Assembly: GCA_020347565.1 (NCBI GenBank)
Contig: CP070732.1
Span: 1,471,508-1,535,507 of the forward strand
Direction: 5' to 3'
DNA: 64,000 bases
From: Methanobacteriota archaeon
Lineage (GTDB): Archaea > Thermoplasmatota > Thermoplasmata > UBA10834
Shown: piece by piece, positions 46,284 through 64,000 of the stretch
How the letters are laid out: the number at the start of each line of letters is the position of its first letter
How positions within the stretch are numbered: the stretch's first letter is position 1
Program-made: the position numbers and the translations under genes
The notes under the pieces: model-generated
The model's database searches: none
Told to the model about the DNA's origin: nothing
The model's input: the letters and a program-made list of their open reading frames with translations, nothing else

Positions 46284-46433
46284 CTCTCTCCCCTGTGTCC
46301 GAAGCCGTAACCGTCAGTCTTCCATATAAGGTTTCGACTTGCGGACGGGCCAGCGCGCATCAGACAAGCTATAAATACGCTTCCACCCTTCTGAACACAT
46401 CGCTCCCGAACGTGGGTTCTGGAGGTGCTGAAC

Positions 46434-47225: not shown

Positions 47226-47261
47226 GGCGCTTCACTAGCTCCCGCGAAGGGGTTTCCGCAG

Positions 47262-48287: not shown

Positions 48288-48302
48288 CACTTCGAGCCGC
48301 TC

Positions 48303-49730: not shown

Positions 49731-49762
49731 ACTTCCGCGCCTACTGCGGGAACGCGAATGGG

Positions 49763-49772
49763 GATAAAAAAC
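49763..49772. promoter_or_regulatory. Single A/T-rich TATA-like element (GATAAAAAAC) shared by the divergent MttB-3 and MFS genes
   Basis: It is the only A/T-rich element in the 123-nt divergent spacer, ~37 nt from ATG 49730 (minus strand) and ~87 nt from ATG 49854 (plus strand). Confidence 0.35.
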
Positions 49773-49853
49773 CCTTCCCCGTGAGGGCCAGCGCGAATTC
49801 GTCGTTGCGGTAGAACGCTGCTGCGGTCCATGCGGCAGAGCGAGGGCGTTTGA

Positions 49854-51089: not shown

Positions 51090-51178
51090 TGCCGGGTCAT
51101 CCACGGAAAACTCAAGGGAAGGGGTTTGAGCAGCCTCGGCTCTGTCGAACGGGCTGCTGGCGAACGAGTGAGACAGCT

Positions 51179-51664: not shown

Positions 51665-51838
51665 TCTTCCTTTTGCTGTAGGGCACGGTTGATACCTTGC
51701 GGTTACTCGAAAACTCAAACAATCGCTTCGAGAAACAAGTGTTCGCTCAGTCGAGAGTCGGGCTTTCCTGTATCGCTTGGCACACAACCAGTGCTGGGTG
51801 TAATGTGAAGCTCATGGTATTTATACTATCGCCTATAT

Positions 51839-52134
51839 GGAGCCTCCATACGTCCGGCTTCGCCGGCATAATGTCGACAAAAGGACTTCGGACGTGCCCC
51901 GTTTCGTGCAATCAGCGGACGGAGGCTCAGAAAGGGCTAAATACGGTTTCTGCGTACGACGTTTTTGTCTTAGGAGCAAGACGCCAGTGAGCAACCGTCC
52001 TGACACCTGTTTGGATCGCCGCTCCTGGACGGAGCATGGTTCTCATGGCGTTTGCTCTCGGCTCGGGGGACGGGGTCCGGGATACCGGTCTCCCTGAGGT
52101 GGAGACATATGGCATCGTCAGATGTAGGCCGAGC
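51839..52134 (+). ncRNA. Candidate structured RNA or long structured 5' leader (unclassified)
   Basis: TATTTATAC (51818..51826) is followed by nested helices read by eye: 51840..47/51921..28 (8 bp), 51850..56/51889..95 (7 bp), 51967..71/51978..82, 52021..25/52031..35, 52057..62/52128..33 (6 bp), and a GAUA-tetraloop hairpin at 52072..52093. No credible ORF. No match to RNase P, SRP or tRNA motifs that I can recall. Confidence 0.3.
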
Positions 52135-52192
52135 TATTTGTGGCAACGGCCCCCTCTCCACCCGGACAACTTTTGACGCGAAGGATGACAGC

Positions 52193-54097
52193 ATGCCGAA
52201 CGGCACCTCGAGGCGGCTGGTGGACGCACCGACGCCTGAGCTGCGCGTGATATCGAGCCGCGGGGAGCGAATGCTCTACTCGCGCGACCAGTCCGAGATT
52301 CCGAGGTTGCTGGGAACGTTCATATTCAGGAGCATGCCCGATGCGGTGGTGCAGCCGCTCTCGGTCGACGCAGTACGGTCGGTCGTCAGGCGCGCCGCCC
52401 AGGAAGGGCTCACCATCATACCGAGGGGCTCCGCCTCATCCCCGTTCGGGGGCTCGGTCCCGGTCGCGGGCGGGCTCGTCGTCGACATGTCGAGGATGGA
52501 CCGTGTGACCGCCATTGACGCCGAGGCGGCGACGGCAACCGTCGAGGCTGGTGCGCGGTGGGCCGACGTGGACAACGAGGCTTCCGCCCATGGCCTCCGG
52601 GTGCCGACATGTCCTTCTAGCAAGTTCTCGACCGTTGGCGGTTGGATAGCGACAGGCGGCCTTGGGCTCAATTCGTACTCGCGCGGCCATCTAAGCCGGA
52701 GCGTCCTGGCCGTCGAGATCGTTTCCGCGAGCGGCGAGTTGAGGAGGTTCACGCCTGGCGATCCGGAGTTCAAGGCGGTCTTCGGGAGCGAAGGGCAGCT
52801 GGGCGTGATCGTCTCCGCGACGCTCTCGCTGTCGAAGGCGACGGAGATCAACACGCCGCACCTGCTCCTGTTCGGCAGGCCTGAGCCGGCACTGTCCTTC
52901 GTCCAGGCGGTCGTCAAGAGCGACGTGGACCCCGTACACATAGTCTTCGAGAGCTCCTCGAAGCTCAAGCTCGTCTCCGAATCGCTGAGAGGAGGACACC
53001 TTCGCGAGGGCGACGGCGTCATCGTGAGCGTCGAGGGCGAGAAGTCCCAGGCCGCGTTCGCCAGGCTCGTTTCCGGCCTGGGCCTTTCCGAGGAGAAGGA
53101 GTACGTCGCGAGATATCTGTGGAACGAGCGGTTCTTCCCCATGAAGGTCCGAAACCACGGCCCTGGAATGCTGGGGACGGAGCTGCTCGTCCGCCAGGCG
53201 CGGCTCCCCGAGATAATCGCCGCCGCTGAGAGGCTGTGCAGGCACATGAACCTCGAGCCGATGTACGAGGTGCACTATCTCTCGGACGGCGACGCGTTGC
53301 TGCTGTGCTTCTATCTGGTCGACCAGGGAAACACGTTCGCCTACACGCTCGACGCGTTCAAGTCGCTCGTTCTCACCTGCGCCCTGATCGACGCCGGCGG
53401 AAGGCCCTATTCGATGGGCATATGGAACCATCCGTTCTCGGAGGCGGTGGACGGCGACGAGCGGCGGCGCCTCGGGAAGGTCAAGGCGGAGCTGGACCCG
53501 AAGTCCCTGATGAATCGTGGCAAGTACTTCTCGCTCTCGGGCAGATGGGCCGGGCTCGGCGGAGCCCTCCTCGACCCGCGGATGATGCGCCCGCTTCTGC
53601 GGGTGCTGCTCGCGTTCTCTCCCGTATCGACGATGTTCATCGGACGCGTCTCGAGAGCGCTCGAGCGGCTGTTCGAGCCGAAGAGTCGAGACCTCGTGCT
53701 CGCAGTGGCCGACAGGTGCGCGATGTGCGGCTCATGCGTGAGCGTCTGCCCTGCCTACCTGCTGACCGGCGATGAGAGAGTCACCGCGAGGGGCAAGCTG
53801 CTCACTGCGAAGGCCATGGCCGGAGGATTCCAGATATCCGAGGAGCACGCCAGCAGGACCTTCCTCTGCATGAGGTGCAAGGCGTGCGAGCAGGTATGCC
53901 AGTCGCGCTTGGAGCTACTGCCGATCTACGACGAGATAGAGCGTCGGCTCGAGCGCACGCACGGCAGGGACTCGCTTGAAATCGAGGAGTTCCTGACCTT
54001 CGCGGAGAACTCACGGGCATACGACGAGCTCGTGAGGAAGGGCTTGGTCATCGGCGCGCCCAGGAGCTGTCCGGGGGGTGATGACGATCGCGTATGA
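52193..54097 (+). CDS. FAD-linked oxidase (GlcD/PCMH-type) fused to a C-terminal 2x[4Fe-4S] module
   Basis: Met48 of the track ORF (GAAGGATGA upstream). The FAD_binding_4 region is ..PDAVVQPLSVDAVRSVVRRAAQEGLTIIPRGSASSPFGGSVP.., followed by ..STVGGWIATGGLG... C-terminal clusters are CAMCGSCVSVCP and CMRCKACEQVCQ, and no CCG domains follow. It overlaps the next gene by 20 nt. Confidence 0.8.
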   Translation: MPNGTSRRLVDAPTPELRVISSRGERMLYSRDQSEIPRLLGTFIFRSMPDAVVQPLSVDAVRSVVRRAAQEGLTIIPRGSASSPFGGSVPVAGGLVVDMSRMDRVTAIDAEAATATVEAGARWADVDNEASAHGLRVPTCPSSKFSTVGGWIATGGLGLNSYSRGHLSRSVLAVEIVSASGELRRFTPGDPEFKAVFGSEGQLGVIVSATLSLSKATEINTPHLLLFGRPEPALSFVQAVVKSDVDPVHIVFESSSKLKLVSESLRGGHLREGDGVIVSVEGEKSQAAFARLVSGLGLSEEKEYVARYLWNERFFPMKVRNHGPGMLGTELLVRQARLPEIIAAAERLCRHMNLEPMYEVHYLSDGDALLLCFYLVDQGNTFAYTLDAFKSLVLTCALIDAGGRPYSMGIWNHPFSEAVDGDERRRLGKVKAELDPKSLMNRGKYFSLSGRWAGLGGALLDPRMMRPLLRVLLAFSPVSTMFIGRVSRALERLFEPKSRDLVLAVADRCAMCGSCVSVCPAYLLTGDERVTARGKLLTAKAMAGGFQISEEHASRTFLCMRCKACEQVCQSRLELLPIYDEIERRLERTHGRDSLEIEEFLTFAENSRAYDELVRKGLVIGAPRSCPGGDDDRV

Positions 54098-55472
54098 GCG
54101 TTACCACATACCGCTGAAGAACGTCGCCGGTAGGGCTCCGCGGATACCCGAGTTCGAGATATCGAGGGCCGACAACTGCGTCAACTGTGGACGATGTGAG
54201 AGGGCGTGCATCTACGGAGTGCACGAGCGCTCCGGCACGGACCCGAGGGAGATGGCGGACCCCATCAACCGCTTCTGCAAGAACTGCTTCAGATGCATCG
54301 CTGAATGCCCCCAGGGAGCGCTGACTATGTCCGAGGGCGAGGAGTACGCATCGCTCGGACGGGGCGTATGGACCTCGAATAGAATGTCCACCATATGGGG
54401 CGAGGCGGAGACAGGCAAGATACCGGTGTTTGGGGCTGGCTACAGAGGCATGTTCGCGGGCGACGGCTACGACAGCATGTGGACCGACATGTCAGAGATA
54501 GTGCGGCCGACGAGAGACGGCATCCATGGTCGTGAGTTCATATCAACGAGCGCGGACATCGGCAGGATACCTTCGTTCTTGGAGTTCTTGCCATCGGGCG
54601 AGATAGCGACGAACATGCCCCCTCTGTTCGAGATACCGATCCCGATGGTGTTGGACGCGACGAGGACAAGCGTGCTTCCGGAGAACGTCGAGGATGGCAT
54701 CGCCATCGCTGCGAAGGCGCTCAGGACGCTGGTGTTCGTTCCGCTCGATCGGACATCGCGCGCCGCCCGTGAGGGGTGCGAGGGATGCGTCGTCCCCGTC
54801 GTGCCCGCACATACGGAGCCTTCATCTTTGAGGCTTCCAGACGGTGTGAGGATGGTGGAGGTGGTCGTCGACGGTTCTTGGAGAGATGAGATGGAGGCGT
54901 TGACGGCGACCTTCGAGGACAAAGTCGTATCCGTGCGCATCAGGGCGGAGAGAGGCGTCGAGGAGACGATCCTCGACATGCTGGACATGGGCGTTGCCGT
55001 GGCCAACGTCGAGTACTCGGACGACGGGATGGAGTACGGTGATGATGGCAGGCATGCCATGGAGTCCCTCCGCGCGATACACGCTAAGCTGGTTTCCGCG
55101 GCAAGGCGGGACGAGATGACCATCATGGCTGGTGGAGGCCTCGCCGCTGCTGAACACGTGCCGAAGAGCATCATATGCGGAGCGGACGTTGTCTGCCTCG
55201 ACAAGTCGCTCCTCATCGCGCTCGAATGCAGGAACTGCATCGACTGCGACCCGGTCTCGTGCCCGGTCGACGTATCGTCCGCCAGCCCGTCCTGGGTCTC
55301 GGACAGGATATCAAACCTCGTCGGCGCGTGGCGCGATCAGCTCCTCGAGGTCCTGGGCGCGATGGGACTCCGCGAGGCTAGACGTCTCAGAGGAGAATTC
55401 GGCCGCGCCATATTCTTCGAGGACCTCGAGAGAGACTTCACCTCATCGCTTGACGGAGGTGAGAGGACCTGA
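54078..55472 (+). CDS. Ferredoxin-domain protein fused to a diverged GltB-FMN-domain (TIM-barrel) paralog
   Basis: N-terminal CVNCGRCERACIYG and CKNCFRCIAECP. The body is colinear with the next gene (..IPVFGAGYRGM.., ..MAGGGLAAAEHVPKSIICGADVV.., ..ECRNCIDCDPVSCP..), but I cannot find the AQGAKPG and GG(Y)GGTGA motifs. Confidence 0.6.
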   Translation: MMTIAYERYHIPLKNVAGRAPRIPEFEISRADNCVNCGRCERACIYGVHERSGTDPREMADPINRFCKNCFRCIAECPQGALTMSEGEEYASLGRGVWTSNRMSTIWGEAETGKIPVFGAGYRGMFAGDGYDSMWTDMSEIVRPTRDGIHGREFISTSADIGRIPSFLEFLPSGEIATNMPPLFEIPIPMVLDATRTSVLPENVEDGIAIAAKALRTLVFVPLDRTSRAAREGCEGCVVPVVPAHTEPSSLRLPDGVRMVEVVVDGSWRDEMEALTATFEDKVVSVRIRAERGVEETILDMLDMGVAVANVEYSDDGMEYGDDGRHAMESLRAIHAKLVSAARRDEMTIMAGGGLAAAEHVPKSIICGADVVCLDKSLLIALECRNCIDCDPVSCPVDVSSASPSWVSDRISNLVGAWRDQLLEVLGAMGLREARRLRGEFGRAIFFEDLERDFTSSLDGGERT

Positions 55473-55543
55473 TTGACCAACAGCCTTCTTACGCCGAATC
55501 GTATCCCGAGGCCGCCCTGGATCCTTCTCAGCGTCTGAGATTC

Positions 55544-56980
55544 ATGAACAGGTTCAAGGTGGTCCGCGCGGACACCTGCATATCTTGCTGCTTGTGCGAG
55601 AGCCTGTGCCCCTACGGCGTCCACAGACGCGTAGAAGGGCACACGAGGATACTGCCTCCGGACGACAGGAAGTGCATAGGCCCGGCTTGCGAGGCCAACG
55701 ACTTCTTCTGCGTGGCCAACTGTCCGACCAACTCGCTATCATTGAGGGAGAGCGACAACTTCAAGAGCTTGGGCGACCCGCGCTGGACGGCGGACATGAT
55801 ACTCGCCACCTGGCATCAGGCCGAGACAGGAGCCCCGCTCCCCCTGGACCACCCAGCGAACGAAGGGCGGTCCGGCGGCGGCTTCGACGAGCTCCGCCTC
55901 GTCCTTCCCGAGAAGACGCCAAGGTATGACCCTGATGACATGTCGACCTCGATGGAGCTCAACAGGAGGGGCACGGGCGAGAGAATCAGGACGTCCGTGC
56001 CGTTTTACGGCGGCGGGATGTCGTTCGGCTCAATAAGCGTGCATACGATGCTCGCGAGGGTCGTAGCGGCGAGGAAGTGGGACACATTCGTCTCGACGGG
56101 CGAGGGCGGGTACCCGAAGCTGCTCGTGCCCTACAGTGACAGCATAATCACGCAGATCGCAACGGGACTCTTCGGCGTGCGCGAGGAGACCATCCAGCGC
56201 TCGCGCATCATCGAGTTCAAGTACGCCCAGGGTGCGAAGCCGGGGCTCGGCGGCCACCTGCTCGGTGACAAGAACACACCCGATGTTGCCAGGATGAGGG
56301 AGGCCGTGCCGTACACGAGCCTGTTCTCGCCTTTCCCTTTCCACAGCGTCTACTCCGTTGAGGACCACAAGAAGCATTTCGACTGGGCTCTGTCGATCAA
56401 CCCGAAGGCGCTCCTCTCGGCCAAGGTCTCCACGCCGAACGACGTCGAGATGGTGGCGGTCGGGAGCTACTACGCGGGGGCGCACATCGTGCACCTCGAC
56501 GGCGGCTACGGCGGGACCGGAGCGGCGCCGGAGATCGCGAAGAAGAACATCGCCATGCCGATAGAATACGCGATACCGAAGGTGCACAGGTTCCTGATGG
56601 CCGAGGGGATCAGGGACGAGGTCACGCTGGTCGCGAGCGGCGGCATCAGGACGGCGCTTGACGTGGCTAAGGCGATTGCGCTCGGGGCGGACGGCGTGGT
56701 GACTGGCACCTCTGAGCTCGTGGCGCTCGGATGCGTGAGGTGCGGCAACTGCGAGAGCGGCAGGGGCTGCCCCCGCGGCATCGCAACCACGGACCCGGAG
56801 CTGGAGCGGCAGAGCACCTCCGACTGGGGCTCCAGCATACTCGACAACCTCTACTCCTCGTGGAGGGCGCAGTGGTGTGAGCTGCTCGCGCGTCTTGAGA
56901 TGAGCGACATTTCCGAGCTCGTTGGACGCACGGACCTGCTGAGATACAGGCAGCGGCCAGCTAAGGAGGTGGGCGAGTGA
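55544..56980 (+). CDS. Ferredoxin-domain + glutamate synthase FMN-binding domain (GltB domain 2, archaeal split type)
   Basis: CISCCLCESLCPYG and CVANCP, then VPFYGGGMSFGS, EFKYAQGAKPGLGGHLLG, HLDGGYGGTGAAP, ASGGIRTALDVAKAIALGADGV, and 3Fe-4S-type GCVRCGNCESGRGCPRGIAT. Confidence 0.85.
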   Translation: MNRFKVVRADTCISCCLCESLCPYGVHRRVEGHTRILPPDDRKCIGPACEANDFFCVANCPTNSLSLRESDNFKSLGDPRWTADMILATWHQAETGAPLPLDHPANEGRSGGGFDELRLVLPEKTPRYDPDDMSTSMELNRRGTGERIRTSVPFYGGGMSFGSISVHTMLARVVAARKWDTFVSTGEGGYPKLLVPYSDSIITQIATGLFGVREETIQRSRIIEFKYAQGAKPGLGGHLLGDKNTPDVARMREAVPYTSLFSPFPFHSVYSVEDHKKHFDWALSINPKALLSAKVSTPNDVEMVAVGSYYAGAHIVHLDGGYGGTGAAPEIAKKNIAMPIEYAIPKVHRFLMAEGIRDEVTLVASGGIRTALDVAKAIALGADGVVTGTSELVALGCVRCGNCESGRGCPRGIATTDPELERQSTSDWGSSILDNLYSSWRAQWCELLARLEMSDISELVGRTDLLRYRQRPAKEVGE

Positions 56981-59610
56981 AGCGGACGGCGAAGCGCGTG
57001 ATAGAATCGCGTTCGTGGGTTGCCGACACCGTCCAGCGGCCCAAGACAGCATCGGCCGAAGCTGAGGGAGGATGCGGCGTCGTCGGCCTCGCATCCTCCG
57101 TCCCGATCGTTGGCAGGCACATCCTGTCACCACTCGCGCAGATGCACAACAGGGGGAACGGCAAGGGCGGAGGCATAGCTGTCGTAGGCTTGTCCCCGGA
57201 GCAGATGGGCGTGCCCAAGGAGATCCTGGATGATGACTATCTGTTGCAGGTTGCGTACCTCAAGCCGATCGCGAGGAGGCCCCTCGAGGACGAGATGATT
57301 CGGCCGTTCTTCGAAATACACGAAGAGTACGAGGTGGAGACGAGCACAGATGAAGCATTGCTCGCGAGGCTCGAGGTGAGGCCGCCGGCCGTGCGCCGCT
57401 ACTTCTGCCGTGTCAGGGAGGACGCGCTGGAGGCCTTCGTCAAGGAGAACGGCCTCGAGGACCTCGACCGAGCCAAGGCAGAGGACGAGTTCGTCTTCCA
57501 GAACAGCTTCAGGATCAACCACAGGTACTACGCCTCCGGGGACATGCAGGCGTTCGTGATGTCCCACGGCCGGAACATGTTCGTGCTGAAGATAGTTGGC
57601 TACGCGGAGGACGTCATCGCCTACTACCGACTCGAAGAGCTCAGGGCCCACATATGGATCGGACACCAGCGGTACCCGACCAAGGGCCGGGTCTGGCACC
57701 CGGGTGGAGCGCATCCCTTCGTCGGCCTCGATGAAGCGCTCGTCCACAACGGCGACTTCGCCAACTACCACTCCGTCACCGAATATCTCGCACAGCGGAA
57801 CATCGTGCCGCTATTCCTCACGGACACCGAGATATCCGTCCTGCTATTCGACCTGCTGAGCAGGACATACGAGTACCCTCTGGAATGCATCATCGAAGCG
57901 CTCGCTCCGACCACCGAGCGGGACTTCGAACTCCTGCCAGAGTACAGGAGGCGGAAGTACCGTGCGATCCAGGCGGTGCACATGCACGGCTCTCCGGACG
58001 GCCCCTGGTTCTTCATAATAGGCAAGAACGCCGTGCGGGAGCGGCGGCTGCAGCTCATGGGCATAACCGACACATCGATGCTCAGGCCGCAGGTGTTCGC
58101 CCTGGTGGACGGCGACGTGCAGATCGGCATCGTCGCTTCGGAGAAGCAGGCGGTCGACTCGGTGTTGGGAAGCATATCGGAGGAGATGCCGTCCGTGCCG
58201 CGATACGCCGACAAGTACTGGAATGCTAGGGGCGGCAGTCACAACTACGGAGGCGCGTTCGTCTTCAGCCTGTTCTCAGAGGAGGATGGTAGAGGACCGA
58301 TGCGACTCATTTGCACCAACAAGTTCGGCGAGGCCGTGTCCACACCTTACAGAGGATGGGACAGGGGCGAAGACGCCCGGCTCGCGCGGCCCGGGAGCGG
58401 CGCGGCCGGCGATGCGGCCTTCGTGGCCGACATCGCACACAGGAAGAACGCGGAGTCCTCGTTCAGGTCGTTCGCGTCTTCGCTAGCGAGCCGCCCCGGA
58501 GACGACATCAGCGCTCTGTTCTCGCGCGTTGTCTCGTACGCCTCGGAGAGCGACTCGCACAGGGTGGAGATGGTCCAGCTCCTCACACTGATGATAGATC
58601 GCGTGTACCCAACGGGCCGGTTGAGGCCGGCCAGGATCACCGGGCTGGCGACTGAAGCGCTCGAGGCCGTGCTGAGGTCCTCGCCGAGGGTCGAGGCCTG
58701 CAAGCGGTCGGCCCACCAGCTCGTGGACATCGCCAACAGGGAGGCGCTGCGCGCCCCCGACTCGCCCTACGACTCCTTGGTTGTCGACTGCAGGGACTTC
58801 CCGATGGAGGGCGAGGGCGGCGTCTCGTTCGTGATATCCAAGGCGAAGGCGCTCGGATGGAACCACGTGATCGCCTTCGCAACCAATGGGCACAGGTTCA
58901 TAGGATGCGGCCTCGGACCACGTAGCAATGGTTTTAGGATCGATGTGCATGGCAGCCCTGGCGACTACTTGGCGTCAGGTGTGGACGGCGCGGAGGTACG
59001 GGTCCACGGTAACGGCCAGGACCAGCTGGGACAGATATTCAGCGACGGCAGGCTCGTGGTATACGGCGACGTTGGCCAGACATTCCTCTATGGCGGAAAG
59101 GGCGGCGAGGCGTTCGTCATGGGCAGCGCTGCCGGGCGGCCGCTGATAAACGCCGTCGGCAGGCCAAAGGTCGTCATAAACGGCACATGCCTCGACTACC
59201 TCGCGGAGTCCTTCATGGCCGGCAACCCGCTGTACGGCGGGGGTTTCGCGATCGTGAACGGCATCGCCTTCGACGGGACTGGGAGGCTCGTGGAGCTTCC
59301 GGAGGCGTATCCAGGCGGCAACCTGTTCTCGCTCGCCTCAGGAGGCGCCATATACATTCGCGACCCCAGAGGACAGGTGGGCGAGGACCAGTTGAACGGG
59401 GGCAGGATTTCGCGGCTCACCGAGGCCGACTGGAACCTCATGCTACCCTACCTTCAGGAGAACGAGCGGCTGTTCGGCATATCCCTGAACGACTTCCTGC
59501 TGAAGGTGGATGGGGTGCGCAGACCGCCGGAGGAGATATACAGGAAGATCGAGGCTGTGCCGCTGATAACGCTCTCTGGTAAGACGCAGATGCAGGACCT
59601 GGGCGAATGA
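56977..59610 (+). CDS. Glutamate synthase amidotransferase domain (class II, Ntn) fused to the GXGXG domain (GltB domains 1 + 3)
   Basis: The GTG start overlaps the upstream stop as GTGA, with AAGGAGGTG 5 nt upstream. A 32-aa propeptide precedes CGVVGL.., then ..HNRGNGKGGGI.., ..IGHQRYPTKG..HPF..VHNGDFANY... The C-terminal beta-helix is ..DVHGSPGDYLASGVDGAEVRVHGNGQDQLGQIFSDGRLVVYGDVGQTFLYGGKGGEAFVMGSAAGRPL... Confidence 0.85.
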   Translation: MKRTAKRVIESRSWVADTVQRPKTASAEAEGGCGVVGLASSVPIVGRHILSPLAQMHNRGNGKGGGIAVVGLSPEQMGVPKEILDDDYLLQVAYLKPIARRPLEDEMIRPFFEIHEEYEVETSTDEALLARLEVRPPAVRRYFCRVREDALEAFVKENGLEDLDRAKAEDEFVFQNSFRINHRYYASGDMQAFVMSHGRNMFVLKIVGYAEDVIAYYRLEELRAHIWIGHQRYPTKGRVWHPGGAHPFVGLDEALVHNGDFANYHSVTEYLAQRNIVPLFLTDTEISVLLFDLLSRTYEYPLECIIEALAPTTERDFELLPEYRRRKYRAIQAVHMHGSPDGPWFFIIGKNAVRERRLQLMGITDTSMLRPQVFALVDGDVQIGIVASEKQAVDSVLGSISEEMPSVPRYADKYWNARGGSHNYGGAFVFSLFSEEDGRGPMRLICTNKFGEAVSTPYRGWDRGEDARLARPGSGAAGDAAFVADIAHRKNAESSFRSFASSLASRPGDDISALFSRVVSYASESDSHRVEMVQLLTLMIDRVYPTGRLRPARITGLATEALEAVLRSSPRVEACKRSAHQLVDIANREALRAPDSPYDSLVVDCRDFPMEGEGGVSFVISKAKALGWNHVIAFATNGHRFIGCGLGPRSNGFRIDVHGSPGDYLASGVDGAEVRVHGNGQDQLGQIFSDGRLVVYGDVGQTFLYGGKGGEAFVMGSAAGRPLINAVGRPKVVINGTCLDYLAESFMAGNPLYGGGFAIVNGIAFDGTGRLVELPEAYPGGNLFSLASGGAIYIRDPRGQVGEDQLNGGRISRLTEADWNLMLPYLQENERLFGISLNDFLLKVDGVRRPPEEIYRKIEAVPLITLSGKTQMQDLGE

Positions 59611-59715
59611 CGGATTTTCGACCCAGGGCGGACGCCTCTGGACGGGATTCGGAAAACGCCTCCCGCAGGCAACAGGCGTCGGAATAATGACGCGCGGTAT
59701 CGTACTGTCAGCAAG

Positions 59716-59724
59716 CTTAAATAT
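59716..59724 (+). promoter_or_regulatory. TATA-box-like element (CTTAAATAT) upstream of the NfnA/SudB-like gene
   Basis: It is A/T-rich, in the 198-nt gap after the GltB-type genes and ~90 nt upstream of ATG 59809. A second element, CCATATATC, is at 59763..59771. Confidence 0.35.
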
Positions 59725-59808
59725 GGTCTTAAAGATGCAACGCCCAGAGAAGGCTGAACGGCCCATATATCGGCCCTGGACCGGCCCTCTGGACGGGCCC
59801 GGGGCGGG

Positions 59809-60648
59809 ATGTGTGCGAACGTGTACGAGATAGTCAAGGCGGAGAAGCTCACGCCTGATGTCACGCGCCTGGAGATCGCCGCGCCTAACATAGCGAAGAA
59901 GGCGAAGGCGGGCCAGTTCGTCATGCTGACGGTGGATGAGCACGGCGAGAGGATACCGCTGACGATGGCGGACTTCTCTCCCGCAAAGGGAACGATCACG
60001 ATCGCAGCACTGGAGATCGGCAAGACGACGAGGAAGCTGGGCACCCTGAAGGTCGGGGATAGCCTGTTCAGCCTCGTGGGTCCGCTGGGCCTGCCTACGG
60101 AGCTGAAGAAGTACGGGACCGTCGTGTGCGTCGGCGGAGGCATAGGTCTTGCGCTGATGTACCCAGTGGTCCGGGCGCTCAAGGAGGCGGGGAACACCAT
60201 GATCTCCGTCATCGGCGCGAAGACGAAGGACCTGCTCATCTACGAGGATGAGATTGCGAAGGTCAGCGACGAGCTGCATTTCTGCACGTAAGACGGCTCG
60301 AAGGGCCATCATGGGTTCGTGAGCGATGTGCTGAAGAGGCTCATAGATGAGAAGAGGGAGATCGACGAGGTGTATGCCGTCGGGCCGATCATCATGATGA
60401 AGGTCATCGCGAACCTGACGAGGCCTTATCGCATACACACAGTCGTGAGCCTCAACCCGATAATGGTCGATGGCACCGGCATGTGCGGCTCCTGTCGCGT
60501 GATAGTCGACGGCAAGACGAAGTTCGGGTGTGTGGACGGCCCCGAATTCGACGGCCACAAGGTCGACTTCGAGAACCTGACGGCGAGGAACAGGCGGTAT
60601 CTGACGGAAGAGCAGATCGCGCTCAAGCGATTCACGGGGGCGAAGTAG
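59809..60648 (+). pseudogene. NfnA/SudB-like ferredoxin-NADP(+) reductase-type subunit (FAD/NAD(P) + [2Fe-2S]) interrupted by one in-frame TAA
   Basis: Track ORFs 59809..60291 and 60319..60648 are in the same frame. The joined translation ..DELHFCT*DGSKGHHGFVSDVLKRLIDEKREIDEVYAVGPIIMMKV..NPIMVDGTGMCGSCRVIVDG..FGCVDGPEF is colinear with P. furiosus SudB (..VIVTTNDGSYGMKGFTT..) as I recall it. The TAA (60289..60291) sits at the N/D of the T-(N/D)-D-G-S motif, inside the NAD(P) domain. Alternatives are read-through, a genuinely split gene, or an assembly error. Confidence 0.65.
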
Positions 60649-62115
60649 ATGGCTGAGGGGAAGAAGAAGAAGAAGACCAAGATAGTCCCGAAGAAGTACC
60701 CGATGCCGGAGCAGAACCCGAAGGAACGCGTGAAGAACTTCGACGAGGTGCCGCTCGGACAGGACGGGGAGACTGCCATACTGGAGGCGAAGCGCTGCCT
60801 CCAGTGCAAGCCAAGCCCGAACAGGAAGATATGCAAGGATGGCTGCCCCGTCGAGATAGACATACCCGCGTTCATCAAGCAGGTGCAGGAAGGAGACTTC
60901 GCGGGTGCGATGAAGACCGTTCGCGACAAGCAGAACCTGCCCGCGGTGTGCGGAAGGGTCTGCCCGTACGAGAACCAGTGCGAGGGGATGTGCGTCCTCG
61001 GCAAGAAGAACGAACCGGTGGGCATAGGGAGACTTGAGCGGTTCCTGGCTGACTGGGAGCGGAACGAACAGAAGCACGGGAAGATCGAGCTGCCGCCTCC
61101 GACTGGGAAGAAGGTCGCGGTCGTCGGCGGCGGCCCCGCCGGCCTCACGGTCGCGGGCGACCTGGCCAAGCAGGGGCACAAGGTCACGCTGTTCGAGGCG
61201 CTGCAGTACTCCGGTGGCGTGCTCGTGTACGGCATACCCGAGTTCAGGCTGCCGAAGGAGATCGTCAGGGCCGAGGTGGACTTCATAAGGAGGAGCGGGG
61301 TCGAGATGAGGAACGACCATGTGGTCGGCAAGCTCGACACCGTGGACGAACTGTTGCAGGAGTACGATGCCGTCTTCGTCGGCACGGGTGCGGGCCTGCC
61401 CAACTGGACGAACCTCGAGGGGGAGAACCTCAACGGCATACTGTCCGCGAACGAGTTCCTGACGCGAGTGAACCTCATGAAGGCTTTCAACTTCCCCGAG
61501 TACGACACGCCCATACGCGTCGGCAAGACCGTCGTGACACTCGGCGGCGGCAACGTCGCGATGGATTGCGCGAGGACGTCGCTCAGGCTCGGCGCCGAGG
61601 AATCGATCATCCTGTACAGGCGGTCCGATGCCGAGCTGCCCGCCAGGCGCGAGGAGGTGCACCACGCCAAGGAGGAGGGCGTCAGGTTCGAGCTGCTGGC
61701 CGCTCCGGTGAGGTACATAGGCGACGACGAGGGGAACGTCAAGCAGGTGGAGGCGGTGCGGATGAGGCTCGGAGAACCGGACGACTCCGGCAGGAGGAGG
61801 CCGATCAAGATCGAAGGGTCGAACTTCATCGTCGACTGCCAGACGGTTCTGATAGCCATCGGACAGAGCCCGAACCCGCTCGTGCCGATGACGACACCGG
61901 ACCTGAAGACGACCAAGTGGGGGACGATCGCCGTTGACGCCGAGGGCAGGACGTCGAAGAAGGGCGTGTTCGCCGGCGGGGATATATCCACCGGTGCCGC
62001 GACGGTGATTCTGGCGATGGGCGATGGCAAGCGCGCCGCGAAGGCGATGCACAAGTACCTAACCGAGGACGCGTCGTGGCCGGCCCCCGAGGTGTTCGAG
62101 AAGGCCGCATGCTGA
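60649..62115 (+). CDS. GltD/NfnB/SudA-like NAD(P)H-dependent flavin oxidoreductase (glutamate synthase small-subunit family)
   Basis: The ATG immediately follows the upstream TAG. N-terminal Fe-S Cys pattern (CLQCK..C..GCPV, CGRVCPYENQCEGMC), FAD fold VAVVGGGPAGLTVAGDLA, NAD(P) fold VVTLGGGNVAMDCART, and C-terminal VFAGGDISTGAATVILAMGDGKRAA. Confidence 0.85.
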   Translation: MAEGKKKKKTKIVPKKYPMPEQNPKERVKNFDEVPLGQDGETAILEAKRCLQCKPSPNRKICKDGCPVEIDIPAFIKQVQEGDFAGAMKTVRDKQNLPAVCGRVCPYENQCEGMCVLGKKNEPVGIGRLERFLADWERNEQKHGKIELPPPTGKKVAVVGGGPAGLTVAGDLAKQGHKVTLFEALQYSGGVLVYGIPEFRLPKEIVRAEVDFIRRSGVEMRNDHVVGKLDTVDELLQEYDAVFVGTGAGLPNWTNLEGENLNGILSANEFLTRVNLMKAFNFPEYDTPIRVGKTVVTLGGGNVAMDCARTSLRLGAEESIILYRRSDAELPARREEVHHAKEEGVRFELLAAPVRYIGDDEGNVKQVEAVRMRLGEPDDSGRRRPIKIEGSNFIVDCQTVLIAIGQSPNPLVPMTTPDLKTTKWGTIAVDAEGRTSKKGVFAGGDISTGAATVILAMGDGKRAAKAMHKYLTEDASWPAPEVFEKAAC

Positions 62116-62233
62116 GCATCGGCGGACGCGTAAACCCCTTCTCACAAACCGTTTCACGGGATATTCTGTTCGAACCGTAAAAGGTCCAGGTTCTTCGAGT
62201 ACAAAGGCGATGTGGCGAACAAAAGCCGCGTCG

Positions 62234-64000
62234 CTATATGCGCACGGGACGGCCGATCGGCACCGTGAAATGGAAAGTGCTTCCGGCTCCCACCTTGCTC
62301 TCGAACCACATCTCGCCGCCGTGCTTCCTCACTATCTCCCTCGCGACGAACAGGCCGATTCCGACGCGTCCGTCCTCACGCGTCAGCCCCGCGTCGGCGA
62401 GGAAGAACTTGTCGAACACCTTGCCCCTGTCCTCCTCCGAAATGCCAACGCCCGTGTCCCTGACCCAGATGTGGACCTTGCCAGCGAGTATGTCTGCCCC
62501 TATCGTTATCTTGCCCCGTTTCTGCGTGTATCTCACGGCGTTGTTGAAGACCGTAGCGAGGGCGTCGTACATGCGGAGCCTGTCGGCGTTGACCACGGGC
62601 AGTTCGTTGCCGAACAGGATATTCACCTCGTGCTCCCTCGCCTGTATCTCATGCTCGTAGTCGGCGACGACCTCCCTCGCGATGGTAGCGAGGTTCACTG
62701 GCTCCAGGTCAAGCGTCAGGCTCTCCTCCTGGAGGCGAGCCATCTCCAGCATCTTGCTCACCAGGGAGTTGATGCGGTTGATGGAACTGAGCATCGTCGC
62801 GAACTTCTCCCTCAGCTTGGGAGGCACGTCGCCATACATGCCCTCAGAGGCCATCTCGAGGTAGCCGAGGATGGTGGTGAGCGGAGTCCTCAGCTCGTGC
62901 GATATGGTGTTCACGAGGCTGTCCTTCGCCTTGTCGAGCGTCTTCATGTCCTCGTACGCCTTCCTGACCGACTCGAAGTTTTCCCTGAGCTCCTCTCGCA
63001 GTCTGGCGTTCTCTATCGCTGCTGCGGCGTGCGTCGCGAACGGTATTGCTATCTCGTATTCCTGCTCGGTGAACTGCCTGTCCTTCTTCCTGAACAGCTC
63101 GAGCACGCCGACGACCTCGCCCGCCTTGCTCTTAAGCGGGATGCACATCATCCCCTGCCTCAACGTTACGGAGTCCAGCCCGGGGATGCTCTCCACCCGC
63201 GCGTCGTTCCACGCGTCGGCAACTATCTCCACCTTACCGGTCCTGGCGACCTCGCCCGCGAGCCCCGATATGGGTCCGATGTCTGCCATTATGACCTCCG
63301 CGAACTTGCCCGTCGCGAAGGCCGGCATCATCAGGTTACGTTCCCAGTCTATCAGGTACACGCTGATTTCCTCGAACGGGACGATCTTGTTCAGGCTCTC
63401 CGCCAGCTTTCCGAGCGTTTCCTTCAGGTCGACTGGCTCCTGAAGTACGGCCGTCGCCTCCGTCAATATCTTGTAGTTGCTGATGGTCTGGTTCAGCTCG
63501 TCTACGAGCTCGGCGTTGGCCACGGCGATCGAAGCGAGGCTGGCGAAGATCTCGAGGTTTATCACGAGGTTCTTCGAGGGTAGCTTGCGGTTCAGCGGCC
63601 CGTCCGGCTCGAGGAACCCGATGATGTTGCCGTCGCTGTCCTCGAAGGTCACGTAAAGCACATCGAGCTCGTGCCAGTCGTCCTCGCGCTCCCTCGGGAG
63701 CCCGGCCAGCTCCGGATGCAGCAGCCCGTAATAGCCATTCGTGTTCTCGCCGGGTTTCGCCTTGTAGATGTATGTGAACCTCCCGAGCTGCTCGGCCTCC
63801 CCGATCTCTCGCCGGAACTGGTCCATCGGTTTGGTGCTGCCGATGACCTGGTCGAACGCCTCCTCGGAATACCCTTTCGAAGCGATGAGCTTGAACTCGT
63901 TGCCCGTCTTGTTCATCAGGAAGGCGTCGCAACCTTCGAACCCGAAGCTGTCCGTGACGCTGTCGACGATCTGCCCGAACAGCTGTTGGATGTCACGGGT
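62234..64000 (-). CDS. Multi-GAF sensor histidine kinase; the 5' end runs past the right window edge
   Basis: The track starts it at Met 63916, but the frame stays open to base 64000 and reads TRDIQQLFGQIVDSVTDSFGFEGCDAFL(MNK..), a typical GAF-domain beginning. It has at least two GAF domains, HisKA ISHELRTPLTTILGYLEM, and HATPase NNAVRYT, VRDTGVGI, GIGLFVAREIV, GAGSTFHFTVP. Confidence 0.85.
   Translation of the reverse strand, partial: TRDIQQLFGQIVDSVTDSFGFEGCDAFLMNKTGNEFKLIASKGYSEEAFDQVIGSTKPMDQFRREIGEAEQLGRFTYIYKAKPGENTNGYYGLLHPELAGLPREREDDWHELDVLYVTFEDSDGNIIGFLEPDGPLNRKLPSKNLVINLEIFASLASIAVANAELVDELNQTISNYKILTEATAVLQEPVDLKETLGKLAESLNKIVPFEEISVYLIDWERNLMMPAFATGKFAEVIMADIGPISGLAGEVARTGKVEIVADAWNDARVESIPGLDSVTLRQGMMCIPLKSKAGEVVGVLELFRKKDRQFTEQEYEIAIPFATHAAAAIENARLREELRENFESVRKAYEDMKTLDKAKDSLVNTISHELRTPLTTILGYLEMASEGMYGDVPPKLREKFATMLSSINRINSLVSKMLEMARLQEESLTLDLEPVNLATIAREVVADYEHEIQAREHEVNILFGNELPVVNADRLRMYDALATVFNNAVRYTQKRGKITIGADILAGKVHIWVRDTGVGISEEDRGKVFDKFFLADAGLTREDGRVGIGLFVAREIVRKHGGEMWFESKVGAGSTFHFTVPIGRPVRI

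What the first reader, a model, noticed from the sequence alone, without database searches (positions are those of the whole stretch)
52193..62115. Composite 10-kb flavin/Fe-S cluster: split archaeal glutamate synthase flanked by a GlcD-like FAD oxidase and an NfnAB/SudAB-like pair
Seen: six co-directional genes. (1) A GlcD-type FAD oxidase fused to 2x[4Fe-4S]. (2) A ferredoxin domain plus a diverged GltB-FMN paralog. (3) A ferredoxin domain plus a canonical GltB FMN domain. (4) A class-II amidotransferase fused to the GXGXG domain. (5) An NfnA/SudB-like subunit. (6) A GltD/NfnB/SudA-like subunit. Genes 1/2 overlap by 20 nt, genes 3/4 overlap as GTGA, and gene 6 starts at the base after gene 5's stop. 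Established: GltB domains plus GltD form GOGAT. NfnAB is a flavin-based electron-bifurcating NADH/ferredoxin:NADP oxidoreductase. The GlcD family includes D-lactate and D-2-hydroxyglutarate dehydrogenases. Inference: a single large complex or tightly linked pathway coupling NAD(P)H/ferredoxin, and possibly 2-hydroxyacid oxidation that supplies 2-oxoglutarate, to glutamate synthesis. I cannot assign this subunit set to any characterised enzyme.
Basis: partly seen in the sequence, partly recalled or inferred. Interest (0 to 1): 0.7.

Follow-up and report, generated by a model that had tools for sequence, protein, structure and literature searches.

The report
Four-subunit iron-sulfur glutamate synthase operon
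Four of the six genes form a widely conserved, uncharacterised type of glutamate synthase that carries its own flavin/iron-sulfur electron-entry subunit, while the last two genes are an ordinary, separately transcribed NfnAB pair whose small-subunit gene is broken by a stop codon in this genome.

Summary
The six genes and their domains are real, with two corrections. Gene 5 carries an in-frame TAA at 60289-60291. Gene 1 most likely starts at 52109, not 52193.

Genes 1-4 behave as one cassette. With gene 2 as anchor, the order gene 2 - gene 3 - gene 4 is kept in all 80 best loci from archaea and bacteria. Nitrogen-assimilation genes (glnA, amtB, PII, glnD, carAB, purF) lie nearby in 36 of them. 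Gene 1 sits directly upstream in 31 loci. In 44 others its place is taken by MvhD-MetV-MetF, and the two never occur together. Natural gene1-gene2 and gene2-gene3 fusion proteins exist.

Gene 4 keeps all class-II glutaminase residues. Gene 3 keeps all synthase motifs. Gene 2 is a degenerate paralogue of gene 3.

Gene 1 lacks the His/His/Glu site of D-lactate and D-2-hydroxyglutarate dehydrogenases, so 2-hydroxyacid oxidation is not supported and its donor is unknown.

Genes 5/6 are close NfnAB orthologues. They are linked only in one Thermoplasmata clade, have their own conserved promoter, and are separated by inserted genes in some relatives.

Verdict: a new variant of glutamate synthase (genes 1-4) next to an unrelated Nfn pair.

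The parts
51930..51944 (+). BRE/TATA-like promoter element GAAAGGGCTAAATAC of the g1-g4 operon
   Evidence: Conserved in all 12 Thermoplasmata-clade loci aligned. In the 10 leaders extracted from that set, the distance from this element to the start codon is fixed at 181-184 nt.
51951..52108 (+). Conserved 5' leader. It begins with an invariant TGCGTACGNCG. A long-range helix pairs 51972-51991 with 52042-52058. A small hairpin at 52091-52104 overlaps the Shine-Dalgarno sequence.
   Evidence: RNAalifold on 10 leaders gives 24 pairs, 7 of them with compensatory changes. 89% of cells are paired, against 41-54% when the partners are slid. There is no Rfam match.
52109..54097 (+). g1: FAD flavoprotein of the PCMH/VAO fold (GlcD/LctD-like) with a C-terminal 2x[4Fe-4S] domain; proposed electron-entry subunit
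   Evidence: Pfam and NCBIfam matches. The best solved relative is LctD, 7qh2_C (profile E 8e-48). The family-specific invariant motifs LWNERxFPMK and PYGxGxWN replace the dehydrogenase motifs. g1-g2 fusion proteins P0379, P0387, P0482 and P0500 exist.
54078..55472 (+). g2: 2x[4Fe-4S] ferredoxin domain plus a degenerate paralogue of the synthase TIM barrel. It keeps the cluster cysteines (CxxCxxCx4CP) and an FMN-phosphate-like motif, and lacks the 2-oxoglutarate loops.
   Evidence: It is 24% identical to g3 and collinear with it (E 2e-19). The AF2 model is an FMN-type TIM barrel by Foldseek. g2-g3 fusion proteins exist.
55544..56980 (+). g3: ferredoxin domain plus the canonical glutamate synthase FMN/synthase barrel (catalytic synthase subunit)
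   Evidence: PF01645 at E 1e-84. The alignment to GltB structures shows GMSFGS, GEGG, QGAKPGxGG and GGTGAAP, and a cluster motif CxxCxxCx5CP.
56977..59610 (+). g4: 32-residue propeptide, class-II (Ntn) glutaminase with Cys33, helical linker, and GXGXG beta-helix
   Evidence: Cys33 aligns with Cys1 of PurF, and RYPTKG, HNGD and TDTE are invariant in 47 homologues. The AF2 model has pLDDT 80, and its best Foldseek match is the GltS alpha subunit 6s6s_A (E 2e-11).
59699..59728 (+). Conserved BRE/TATA-like element (TTAAATAT at 59717-59724) in the 198-nt g4-g5 gap; promoter of g5-g6
   Evidence: ATCGTACTGTCAGCAAGCTTAAATATGGTC is nearly invariant in the window, L002, L007, L081 and L083, while the flanking sequence is not.
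59809..60648 (+). g5: NfnA/NfnI-S orthologue, interrupted by an in-frame TAA at 60289-60291
   Evidence: Closest solved relatives are P. furiosus NfnI small subunit 5jca_S (E 1e-97) and T. maritima NfnA 4ylf_A (E 2e-81).
60649..62115 (+). g6: NfnB/NfnI-L orthologue (2x[4Fe-4S], FAD, NADPH site)
   Evidence: T. maritima NfnB 4ylf_B at E 6e-168 and P. furiosus NfnI-L at 2e-160, against GltD at 2e-84. TIGR01316 scores 607 bits.

Best explanation
Genes 1-4 (52109-59610) are one operon encoding a four-subunit iron-sulfur flavoenzyme that is this organism's glutamine:2-oxoglutarate amidotransferase (GOGAT).

- g4 releases ammonia from glutamine at its Ntn-Cys33 glutaminase site, after removal of a 32-residue propeptide. 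It also supplies the GXGXG beta-helix.
- g3 is the synthase. It adds the ammonia to 2-oxoglutarate and reduces the 2-iminoglutarate at FMN.
- Electrons reach that FMN through a chain of up to eight Fe-S clusters: two on g1, three on g2 and three on g3.
- g2 is a non-catalytic or differently catalytic paralogue of g3. It bridges g1 and g3, and may stand in for the missing GltB central domain or carry a second FMN.
- g1 (FAD plus 2x[4Fe-4S]) is the dedicated electron-entry subunit, a functional analogue of GltD. In many bacteria MvhD-MetV-MetF takes its place.
- The physiological donor of g1 is unknown, and it is probably not a D-2-hydroxyacid.

Genes 5-6 are a separate NfnAB transhydrogenase unit that merely neighbours the operon in this lineage. 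In this genome it is probably inactive or mis-assembled.

Shown: domain content, catalytic motifs, conserved linkage, gene fusions, and the separate promoter. Inferred: complex formation, the electron path, the role of g1 as electron input, and the enzyme activity itself.
For: - The order g2-g3-g4 is kept in all loci that extend far enough among the 80 best of at least 436 species-level hits.
- Nitrogen-assimilation genes (glnA, PII, amtB, glnD, carAB, purF, hisF, gatCAB) flank the cassette in 36 of 80 loci.
- g1 lies directly upstream in 31 loci and MvhD/MetV/MetF in 44. They never occur together, and the g2 tree splits by module type rather than by taxonomy.
- Natural fusions exist: g1-g2 (P0379, P0387, P0482, P0500) and g2-g3 (P0362, P0364 and P0413 confirmed by Pfam; P0363, P0368 and P0369 inferred from length and match pattern).
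- g4 has invariant Cys33, RYPTKG, HNGD and TDTE, and its fold is closest to the GltS alpha subunit.
- g3 carries all the synthase motifs.
- g2 is a collinear paralogue that lacks the substrate loops but keeps the cluster cysteines and an FMN_dh-like motif in 47 of 56 members.
- In the window, g1/g2 and g3/g4 overlap and the g2-g3 gap is 71 nt.
- Against inclusion of g5-g6: narrow linkage, inserted genes in relatives, their own promoter, and NfnAB orthology.
Against: - No biochemical data exist for any member, and none of the papers found describes this cassette.
- g3 already has its own ferredoxin domain and could take electrons from free ferredoxin. The need for g1 and g2 is therefore not explained by simple electron delivery.
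- g1 retains the W..R carboxylate-binding arginine of the GlcD family (R313), so a carboxylate substrate cannot be excluded.
- g2 has a 20-residue invariant stretch (WTDMSEIVRPTRDGIHGRE) that looks more like an active site or a key interface than a passive wire. It is modelled with low confidence.
- A glutamate dehydrogenase is also encoded in the window, so GOGAT need not be the only route to glutamate.
- The MvhD-MetVF-type loci form a single clade in the g2 tree. The module swap therefore counts as one evolutionary event, not many.
Confidence: 0.6

Rival explanations
1. All six products form one super-complex or obligatory pathway, in which NfnAB-like subunits feed NAD(P)H/ferredoxin electrons into the GOGAT.
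For: - g5-g6 follow g4 on the same strand in the window and in eight relatives: L002-L007, L081 and L083.
- Nfn could in principle make reduced ferredoxin from NADPH for a ferredoxin-type GOGAT (established Nfn chemistry, PMC8097209).
Against: - The linkage is confined to one Thermoplasmata clade (6 of 51 scan loci). It is absent from Methanomassiliicoccales, ANME-1, Methanocellales and all bacterial loci.
- About 2.2-2.4 kb, including ABC-transporter genes, is inserted between g4 and g5 in L003-L006.
- There is a conserved separate BRE/TATA element.
- g5/g6 are 1e-97 / 6e-168 matches to stand-alone NfnI/NfnAB.
- g5 is truncated by TAA here while g1-g4 are intact.
Confidence: 0.06
2. g1 is a true D-2-hydroxyacid dehydrogenase (D-lactate, glycolate or D-2-hydroxyglutarate). 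The complex uses that substrate as the reductant for glutamate synthesis, and in the D-2-hydroxyglutarate case also as the source of 2-oxoglutarate.
For: - The family profile matches LctD, LDHD and glycolate oxidase over the whole FAD and cap domains (E 8e-48 to 4e-36).
- The W..R arginine that binds the substrate carboxylate in that family is invariant (R313; its role is from my knowledge of the D2HGDH/LDHD structures).
- The midpoint potential of such couples, near -190 mV, would suit GOGAT (textbook values).
Against: - The GEHGIG motif is replaced by an invariant PYGxGxWN.
- The GHxGDGNxH region has no conserved histidine in 21 family members.
- PF02913 only just reaches its cut-off (21.7 against 21.2 bits).
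- In many bacteria the same position is filled by MvhD-MetV-MetF, which has no hydroxyacid chemistry.
Confidence: 0.1
3. The complex is a flavin-based electron-bifurcating or confurcating glutamate synthase. A medium-potential donor enters at g1 (or at MetF). The strongly exergonic reduction of 2-iminoglutarate at g3 pulls one electron branch. The other branch, through g2 and its ferredoxin domain, reduces or oxidises free ferredoxin, so conserving energy.
For: - There are up to three flavin sites and eight clusters, far more than a simple ferredoxin-GOGAT needs.
- There are two parallel ferredoxin domains, one on g2 and one on g3.
- The alternative module contains MvhD and MetVF, which are parts of known or proposed bifurcating complexes.
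- The hosts are energy-limited anaerobes: syntrophs, sulfate reducers, methanogen relatives and ANME.
Against: This is purely architectural inference. No bifurcating flavin signature can be read from sequence. g2 may bind no flavin. Extra clusters may serve only as a wire or a scaffold.
Confidence: 0.12
4. g2-g4, with g1, are not a glutamate synthase. They are a related amidotransferase-coupled reductase acting on another 2-oxoacid or amine, comparable to the GltB-like N-methylglutamate synthase MgsABC.
For: - g4's glutaminase domain is closer to PurF/GlmS than to GltB by sequence.
- g2 has its own invariant arginine-rich motif.
- MttB-family methyltransferase genes lie nearby.
- A GDH is present.
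Against: - g3 keeps every GltB synthase motif at 285 bits.
- The g4 fold is closest to the GltS alpha subunit.
- The neighbours across phyla are glnA, PII, amtB, glnD and glutamine-consuming enzymes.
- The MttB neighbour is conserved only within the Thermoplasmata clade.
Confidence: 0.07

Closest known systems
Bacterial NADPH-glutamate synthase GltBD (Azospirillum brasilense, PDB 6S6S/1EA0; B. subtilis 7MFM)
   Same: - Ntn glutaminase with a propeptide and Cys1.
- FMN synthase barrel with the same substrate motifs and cluster cysteines.
- GXGXG beta-helix.
- A separate flavin plus 2x[4Fe-4S] subunit that brings in electrons.
Support: g3 matches at E 2e-50 and the g4 fold at E 2e-11.
   Different: - The domains are spread over three genes in a different order, with the glutaminase fused to GXGXG.
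- There is no recognisable central domain. Instead there is a full-length degenerate paralogue of the synthase (g2).
- Both barrels carry N-terminal 2x[4Fe-4S] ferredoxin domains.
- The cluster motif has four cysteines instead of three.
- The electron-entry subunit is a PCMH-fold FAD protein (g1), not the GltD fold.
Ferredoxin-dependent glutamate synthase (Synechocystis GlsF, PDB 1OFD/1LLW)
   Same: The same glutaminase-synthase chemistry, with single-electron input through an Fe-S cluster to FMN (g3 matches at E 6e-46).
   Different: - GlsF is a single polypeptide that takes electrons from free ferredoxin.
- The ferredoxin domains here are built in.
- Two extra redox subunits (g1, g2) are strictly co-inherited.
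Archaeal split glutamate synthase genes (separate COG0067, COG0069 and COG0070 proteins), including the proposed F420-dependent forms linked to FrhB paralogues
   Same: - GltB domains are encoded as separate genes.
- The synthase subunit has an N-terminal ferredoxin domain.
- The electron-input module is exchangeable (FrhB in PMC9012536 and PMC3448663).
- The enzyme is known only from genomes (PMC8097209).
   Different: - The glutaminase and GXGXG domains are fused into one 877-aa protein with a roughly 120-residue insertion and a helical linker.
- There is an additional paralogous barrel subunit (g2).
- The input module is GlcD-like (g1), or MvhD-MetVF in bacteria.
- I found no description of this four-gene cassette in the searchable literature.
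NfnAB / NfnI (T. maritima 4YLF, P. furiosus 5JCA), for genes 5 and 6 only
   Same: Same two-subunit architecture, tandem coupled genes, and very high similarity (E 6e-168 and 1e-97). The Asp + 3 Cys [2Fe-2S] motif MVDGTGMCGSCR...C is present.
   Different: The small-subunit gene carries an in-frame TAA in this genome, so the enzyme is probably not made intact here, unless the TAA is an assembly error.
LctD of the lactate dehydrogenase-Etf complex, and the GlcD / LDHD / D2HGDH family, for gene 1
   Same: PCMH FAD-binding domain plus cap domain, aligned end to end (profile E 8e-48). The W..R arginine and the C-terminal K..DP..NPGK motif are conserved.
   Different: - It lacks the His/His/Glu metal and catalytic residues.
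- It has its own invariant motifs, LWNERxFPMK and PYGxGxWN.
- It is fused to a GlcF/HdrC-like 2x[4Fe-4S] domain without CCG domains.
- It partners with GltB-type proteins instead of Etf or GlcEF.

Membership tests
Glutamate synthase (GOGAT/GltS) | Class-II (Ntn) glutaminase domain with N-terminal catalytic Cys and the Arg, Asn and Asp residues | tested here: met
   g4 Cys33 aligns with Cys1 of PurF. RYPTKG, HNGD and TDTE are invariant in 47 homologues. The Pfam GATase_6 match itself is below its cut-off.
Glutamate synthase (GOGAT/GltS) | FMN synthase TIM barrel with the 2-oxoglutarate / 2-iminoglutarate and FMN motifs | tested here: met
   g3 scores 285 bits on PF01645. GMSFGS, GEGG, QGAKPGxGG and GGTGAAP align to GltB structures.
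Glutamate synthase (GOGAT/GltS) | Three-Cys ligand set of the [3Fe-4S] cluster in the synthase domain | tested here: met
   All three GltB cysteines are present in g3, and in g2. A fourth cysteine (CxxCxxC...CP) suggests a [4Fe-4S] cluster instead.
Glutamate synthase (GOGAT/GltS) | C-terminal GXGXG beta-helix domain | tested here: met
   PF01493 at 38.4 bits, above its cut-off, in g4 residues 650-802. The model shows a beta-helix, and the best Foldseek hits are GltS alpha subunits.
Glutamate synthase (GOGAT/GltS) | Central domain (PF04898) between the glutaminase and synthase domains | tested here: inconclusive
   No gene here matches PF04898 at E<=0.001. g2 is a degenerate barrel. PF04898 hits only 5 of 56 g2 homologues weakly, and also the g2 part of the fusions P0482 and P0413.
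Glutamate synthase (GOGAT/GltS) | GltD (beta) subunit as electron donor partner, co-inherited with the large subunit | tested here: not met
   g6 is an NfnB orthologue (6e-168 against 2e-84 for GltD). It is linked to the cassette in only one clade.
Glutamate synthase (GOGAT/GltS) | Genomic association with nitrogen assimilation (glnA, PII, amtB and others) | tested here: met
   Such genes occur in 36 of 80 related loci. glnA lies directly upstream of g1 in L025, L028, L040 and L055. They are not adjacent in the window itself.
Glutamate synthase (GOGAT/GltS) | Glutamine + 2-oxoglutarate + 2 e- gives 2 glutamate (enzyme activity) | not testable with these tools
   This needs an enzyme assay.
NfnAB (NADH-dependent ferredoxin:NADP+ oxidoreductase) | Large subunit with a Fer4_20 two-cluster domain plus an FAD/NADPH domain, close to characterised NfnB | tested here: met
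   g6 matches 4ylf_B at E 6e-168 and 5jca_L at 2e-160.
NfnAB (NADH-dependent ferredoxin:NADP+ oxidoreductase) | Small subunit with an FAD/NAD domain and a [2Fe-2S] domain | tested here: met
   g5, read through the stop, matches 5jca_S at E 1e-97 and scores 401 bits on NF004862. The DGTGMCGSC...C motif is present.
NfnAB (NADH-dependent ferredoxin:NADP+ oxidoreductase) | Both subunit genes intact | tested here: not met
   An in-frame TAA at 60289-60291 stands in place of a conserved Asp codon.
NfnAB (NADH-dependent ferredoxin:NADP+ oxidoreductase) | Electron-bifurcating transhydrogenase activity | not testable with these tools
   This needs an enzyme assay.
GlcD / D-lactate / D-2-hydroxyglutarate dehydrogenase family | PCMH-type FAD-binding domain (PF01565) plus the FAD-oxidase_C cap | tested here: met
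   PF01565 at E 1e-34. PF02913 at 21.7 bits against a cut-off of 21.2. The family profile aligns end to end with LctD and LDHD.
GlcD / D-lactate / D-2-hydroxyglutarate dehydrogenase family | His/His/Glu metal-binding and catalytic residues (the GHxGDGNxH and GEHGIG motifs). That these residues are defining is from my knowledge of the LDHD, D2HGDH and LctD structures. | tested here: not met
   GEHGIG is replaced by an invariant PYGxGxWN. There is no conserved His in the first motif across 21 sequences.
GlcD / D-lactate / D-2-hydroxyglutarate dehydrogenase family | Substrate-carboxylate arginine in the W..R motif | tested here: met
   W310 is nearly invariant and R313 invariant (LWNER). R313 aligns with the vWsaR arginine of LctD.
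Archaeal split GOGAT (separate COG0067/COG0069/COG0070 genes) | Three separate genes for the glutaminase, the ferredoxin-fused synthase and the GXGXG domain, and no further subunits | tested here: not met
   The synthase with its ferredoxin domain is as in that type (g3). The glutaminase and GXGXG domains are fused (g4). Two additional conserved subunits are present, g1 and g2.

The most novel reading that the evidence does not exclude
The g1-g4 complex, and its MvhD-MetVF-g2-g4 counterpart in bacteria, is an energy-conserving glutamate synthase that works by flavin-based electron bifurcation or confurcation. The very exergonic reduction of 2-iminoglutarate would be coupled, through the paralogous barrel g2 and its ferredoxin domain, to reduction or oxidation of ferredoxin. 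Ammonia assimilation in energy-starved anaerobes would then recover rather than waste redox energy. The electron-entry modules would be interchangeable: an orphan GlcD-like flavoprotein or a MetF-type flavoprotein.
Probability: 0.12. Interest if true: 0.85.

Novelty: new variant of a known kind. Interest (0 to 1): 0.6.

Why it matters
The electron donor and subunit make-up of the split, archaeal-type glutamate synthases have never been established biochemically. This analysis defines a specific four-gene cassette that is very widespread: at least 436 species representatives across archaea and at least six bacterial phyla.

Two of its subunits are orphans. One is a GlcD-fold flavoprotein that has lost the dehydrogenase active site. 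The other is a degenerate paralogue of the synthase. Natural gene fusions tie both physically to the synthase.

The analysis also shows that a MetF/MetV/MvhD module replaces the flavoprotein in many sulfate reducers and syntrophs. That gives a concrete, testable hypothesis for how strict anaerobes power ammonia assimilation, and possibly for a new energy-coupled enzyme.

It also removes a misleading association. The neighbouring 'GltD-like' genes are plain NfnAB.

Tried and rejected
- **Recoding of the stop in g5.** I considered selenocysteine or pyrrolysine recoding. I rejected it because the codon is TAA, which ends 4 of 41 genes in the window.
- **Known RNA family in the g1 leader or anywhere in the window.** None was found, at the gathering threshold or at E<=1.
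- **NrpR-type nitrogen operator (GGAA-N6-TTCC).** There are no matches in the window. Short inverted repeats in the two promoter regions were uninformative.
- **Literature.** Six full-text searches and seven papers read turned up no description of the cassette. They gave only generic statements on archaeal GltS domains, and FrhB-linked putative F420-dependent forms.
- **g2 as a straightforward central domain (PF04898).** The support is weak, with 5 of 56 members matching at E>=0.001. I kept it only as an analogy.
- **g2 as a second synthase site.** I rejected this because the GMSFGS...GEGG segment and QGAKPG are missing.
- **Foldseek on the g2 model.** It returned generic FMN TIM barrels (mandelate oxidase, flavocytochrome b2) at low TM-scores of 0.35-0.55. 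This confirms the fold class only.
- **Not done.** I did not test whether g1-family proteins also occur away from g2, and I could not search the rest of the genome for a second GOGAT or a gltD.

Full report
**What is there**

The window comes from a high-GC (about 61%) Thermoplasmata-type archaeon. The nearest public loci are Thermoplasmata MAGs at 71-89% protein identity. The window's own proteins are on record from a 1.97-Mb contig.

Six co-directional reading frames occupy 52052-62115.
- g1: FAD_binding_4, a marginal FAD-oxidase_C match, and a C-terminal two-cluster ferredoxin domain.
- g2: a ferredoxin domain plus only the last third of the Glu_synthase profile.
- g3: a ferredoxin domain plus the full Glu_synthase profile (285 bits).
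- g4: a weak class-II amidotransferase match plus GXGXG.
- g5: a PyrK/NfnA-type protein.
- g6: a GltD/NfnB-type protein.

The stated overlaps are exact: 20 nt for g1/g2, GTGA for g3/g4, and g6 starting on the base after the g5 stop.

**Two corrections to the observation**

First, g5 is interrupted by an in-frame TAA at 60289-60291. Six relatives have an Asp codon there, inside an invariant CTDDGSKG motif. The rest of the gene is undamaged, at 85% identity to L002. TAA is a normal stop codon in this window. This is therefore a recent nonsense mutation or an assembly error, not recoding.

Second, g1 most likely starts at ATG 52109 (662 aa). A GAGGTGG Shine-Dalgarno sequence precedes it, the 28 extra residues are conserved, and the homologues are 662 aa long.

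**Neighbourhood conservation**

I used the most unusual gene, g2, as the anchor. An alignment-based scan of one genome per GTDB species found at least 436 loci that encode a relative, and the best 80 were fetched with 10-kb flanks.

tblastn with all six window proteins shows g2-g3-g4 in that order in every locus that extends far enough. The hosts include Thermoplasmata, Methanomassiliicoccales, ANME-1, Methanocellales, Desulfobacterota, Syntrophales, Chloroflexota, Eubacteriales, Aminicenantes, Planctomycetota and others.

Clustering the flanking ORFs showed that the recurrent neighbours are glnA, PII, amtB, glnD, carA/carB, purF, hisF and gatCAB. At least one of these occurs in 36 of 80 loci. 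This is the context expected for the cell's glutamate synthase.

**The position upstream of g2**

- g1 occupies it in 31 loci. These are all the archaeal loci plus several bacterial ones.
- In 44 others the flanking genes are MvhD/FlpD, MetV and MetF, confirmed by Pfam.
- No locus has both, and four have neither.
- In four loci MetF or MetV has moved to just downstream of g4. In three of them MvhD stays upstream, so the linkage survives rearrangement.
- A neighbour-joining tree of g2 splits by module type rather than by host taxonomy. A Desulfobacteria g1-type locus groups with ANME-1 and Methanocellales. Syntrophus and Thermodesulfobacteriota g1-type loci group with Chloroflexota. The cassette therefore moves as a block.

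**Rosetta-stone evidence**

An exhaustive phmmer search of g2 against 1.84 billion cluster representatives gave 197 hits at E<=1e-30.

Among the best 150 are four proteins of 1098-1218 aa whose Pfam architecture is g1 followed by g2. Six more, of 838-1041 aa, look like g2 followed by g3. Pfam confirmed this for P0362, P0364 and P0413. The other three (P0363, P0368, P0369) are inferred from their length and match pattern.

The sequence of P0379 shows an intact g1 with its family motifs, a proline-rich linker of about 70 residues, and an intact g2. P0362 shows g2, a linker and a fully canonical g3. P0379 sits on a 4.7-kb Logan contig (L084), directly followed by another gene.

Together with the overlapping or closely spaced genes, this is good evidence that g1, g2 and g3 work in one complex.

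**The individual subunits**

- **g4.** Cys33 aligns with the catalytic Cys1 of PurF. RYPTKG, HNGD and TDTE are invariant in 47 homologues, and the 32-residue N-terminal extension is conserved, as expected for a propeptide. The AF2 model (pLDDT 80, pTM 0.85) consists of an Ntn domain with a roughly 120-residue insertion, a helical linker and a beta-helix. Its best structural matches are GltS alpha subunits.
- **g3.** It aligns with GltB structures at E 2e-50 and has every synthase motif. Its cluster motif has four cysteines where GltB has three.
- **g2.** It is a collinear paralogue of g3 (24% identity, E 2e-19). It lacks the segment that carries GMSFGS...GEGG and the QGAKPG loop. It keeps the ferredoxin domain, the cluster cysteines and an FMN-phosphate-like motif. 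Its model is an FMN-type TIM barrel. Its most conserved stretch, WTDMSEIVRPTRDGIHGRE, is invariant from archaea to bacteria but is modelled with low confidence. That suggests an interface or a site that needs a partner.
- **g1.** By profile it is closest to LctD, LDHD and glycolate oxidase. However, the family has replaced GEHGIG by an invariant PYGxGxWN, has no conserved histidine in the GHxGDGNxH region, and has its own LWNERxFPMK motif. The assignment of those residues to the His/His/Glu metal and catalytic site rests on my knowledge of the LDHD, D2HGDH and LctD structures. A D-2-hydroxyacid dehydrogenase activity is therefore not supported, although the carboxylate-binding arginine is retained.

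**Genes 5 and 6**

- g6 matches T. maritima NfnB at E 6e-168 and P. furiosus NfnI-L at 2e-160, against 2e-84 for GltD. g5 matches NfnI-S at 1e-97. They are NfnAB orthologues, not a GOGAT beta subunit.
- They follow g4 in only 6 of the 51 scan loci with enough downstream sequence, and in two further Thermoplasmata contigs.
- In four of these loci, about 2.2-2.4 kb lies between g4 and g5, including ABC-transporter genes.
- The 198-nt g4-g5 gap contains a motif that is nearly invariant in five relatives. It has a BRE/TATA-like core, AGCAAGCTTAAATAT, about 85 nt before the g5 start, and the flanks have diverged.

It does not meet it for the GlcD-like gene.

**Mechanism proposed**

g1-g4 form a glutamate synthase. 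g4 hydrolyses glutamine. g3 makes and reduces 2-iminoglutarate at FMN. Electrons arrive through the clusters of g1, g2 and g3 from the FAD of g1, whose donor is unknown. In many bacteria MvhD-MetVF takes the place of g1.

Exchangeable input modules have a precedent in the proposed F420-dependent, FrhB-linked archaeal glutamate synthases (PMC9012536, PMC3448663).

One point is not explained. g3 has its own ferredoxin domain, so it is unclear why g1 and g2 are strictly retained. That leaves room for a coupled (bifurcating or confurcating) mechanism, which I rate at about 0.12.

**Literature and novelty**

Full-text searches found the general statement that archaea encode GltS domains as separate ORFs (PMC8097209). 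They found no description of this cassette, of g1 or of g2. The library is incomplete, so prior description cannot be ruled out. I classify the finding as a new variant of a known kind of enzyme.

**Seen in passing**

The g1 promoter (GAAAGGGCTAAATAC, 51930-51944) is followed by an invariant TGCGTACGNCG. After that comes a leader whose TATA-to-start distance is fixed at 181-184 nt in ten relatives.

RNAalifold predicts a 16-bp long-range helix (51972-51991 with 52042-52058), with compensatory changes in 7 pairs, and a hairpin over the Shine-Dalgarno sequence. 89% of cells pair, against 41-54% in slid controls. No Rfam family matches.

This is a candidate cis-regulatory leader for the operon. 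The evidence rests on only ten partly related sequences.

Noticed in passing
window 51951-52108 (promoter element at 51930-51944): The 5' leader of the g1-g4 operon is conserved, and its TATA-to-start distance is fixed at 181-184 nt in 10 relatives. It has an invariant TGCGTACGNCG near the predicted transcription start, a 16-bp long-range helix (51972-51991 with 52042-52058) with compensatory changes, and a hairpin over the Shine-Dalgarno sequence. There is no Rfam match. It is a candidate cis-regulatory RNA or operator.
   Followed up: partly
L017-L078 (e.g. L058:3500-6300, L023, L030, L051); none in the window: In 44 of the 80 related loci (Desulfobacterota, Syntrophales, Planctomycetota, Leptospirales, Latescibacterota and others), MvhD/FlpD, MetV and MetF genes occupy the place of g1 directly upstream of g2-g3-g4. 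They never occur together with g1. In L033, L039, L059 and L068, MetF or MetV lies just downstream of g4 instead. This suggests a methylene-THF-reductase-type module coupled to this glutamate synthase.
   Followed up: partly
P0379, P0387, P0482, P0500 (g1-g2 fusions); P0362, P0363, P0364, P0368, P0369, P0413 (g2-g3 fusions); L084:264-3920: Natural single-chain fusions exist of the GlcD-like flavoprotein with the degenerate barrel, and of the degenerate barrel with the canonical synthase. In P0482 and P0413 the g2 part weakly matches the GltS central-domain profile PF04898.
   Followed up: partly
window 60289-60291: An in-frame TAA in the NfnA-like gene replaces a conserved Asp codon (GAY in six relatives, so two substitutions). 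The gene is otherwise intact. It is either a recent pseudogene or an assembly error.
   Followed up: yes
window 59699-59728: The motif ATCGTACTGTCAGCAAGCTTAAATATGGTC is nearly invariant in the g4-g5 gap of five Thermoplasmata relatives. It is a likely BRE/TATA promoter for the NfnAB genes.
   Followed up: partly
window 7335-8798 (-), 8808-9464 (-), 9836-11326 (+), 48306-49730 (-): There are three MttB-family methyltransferase genes and a B12-binding corrinoid protein gene. I saw no in-frame TAG, so these are non-pyrrolysine MttB homologues. This fits the non-methanogenic Thermoplasmata lineages basal to Methanomassiliicoccales.
   Followed up: no
window 43727-45049 (-) and 19424-20638 (+): A glutamate dehydrogenase gene (ELFV_dehydrog) lies 7 kb upstream of the operon, so the organism has both routes to glutamate. 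Separately, there is an HdrD-like protein with a 4Fe-4S dicluster domain and two CCG domains.
   Followed up: no
window 46425-63916; L081, L083: The gene order aldolase (DeoC) - Zn-ADH - MttB - MFS transporter - Ssb-like OB protein - g1..g6 - GAF histidine kinase is conserved as a block in relatives whose g1 is only 55-63% identical. In L003-L006 an ABC-transporter cassette is inserted between g4 and g5.
   Followed up: partly
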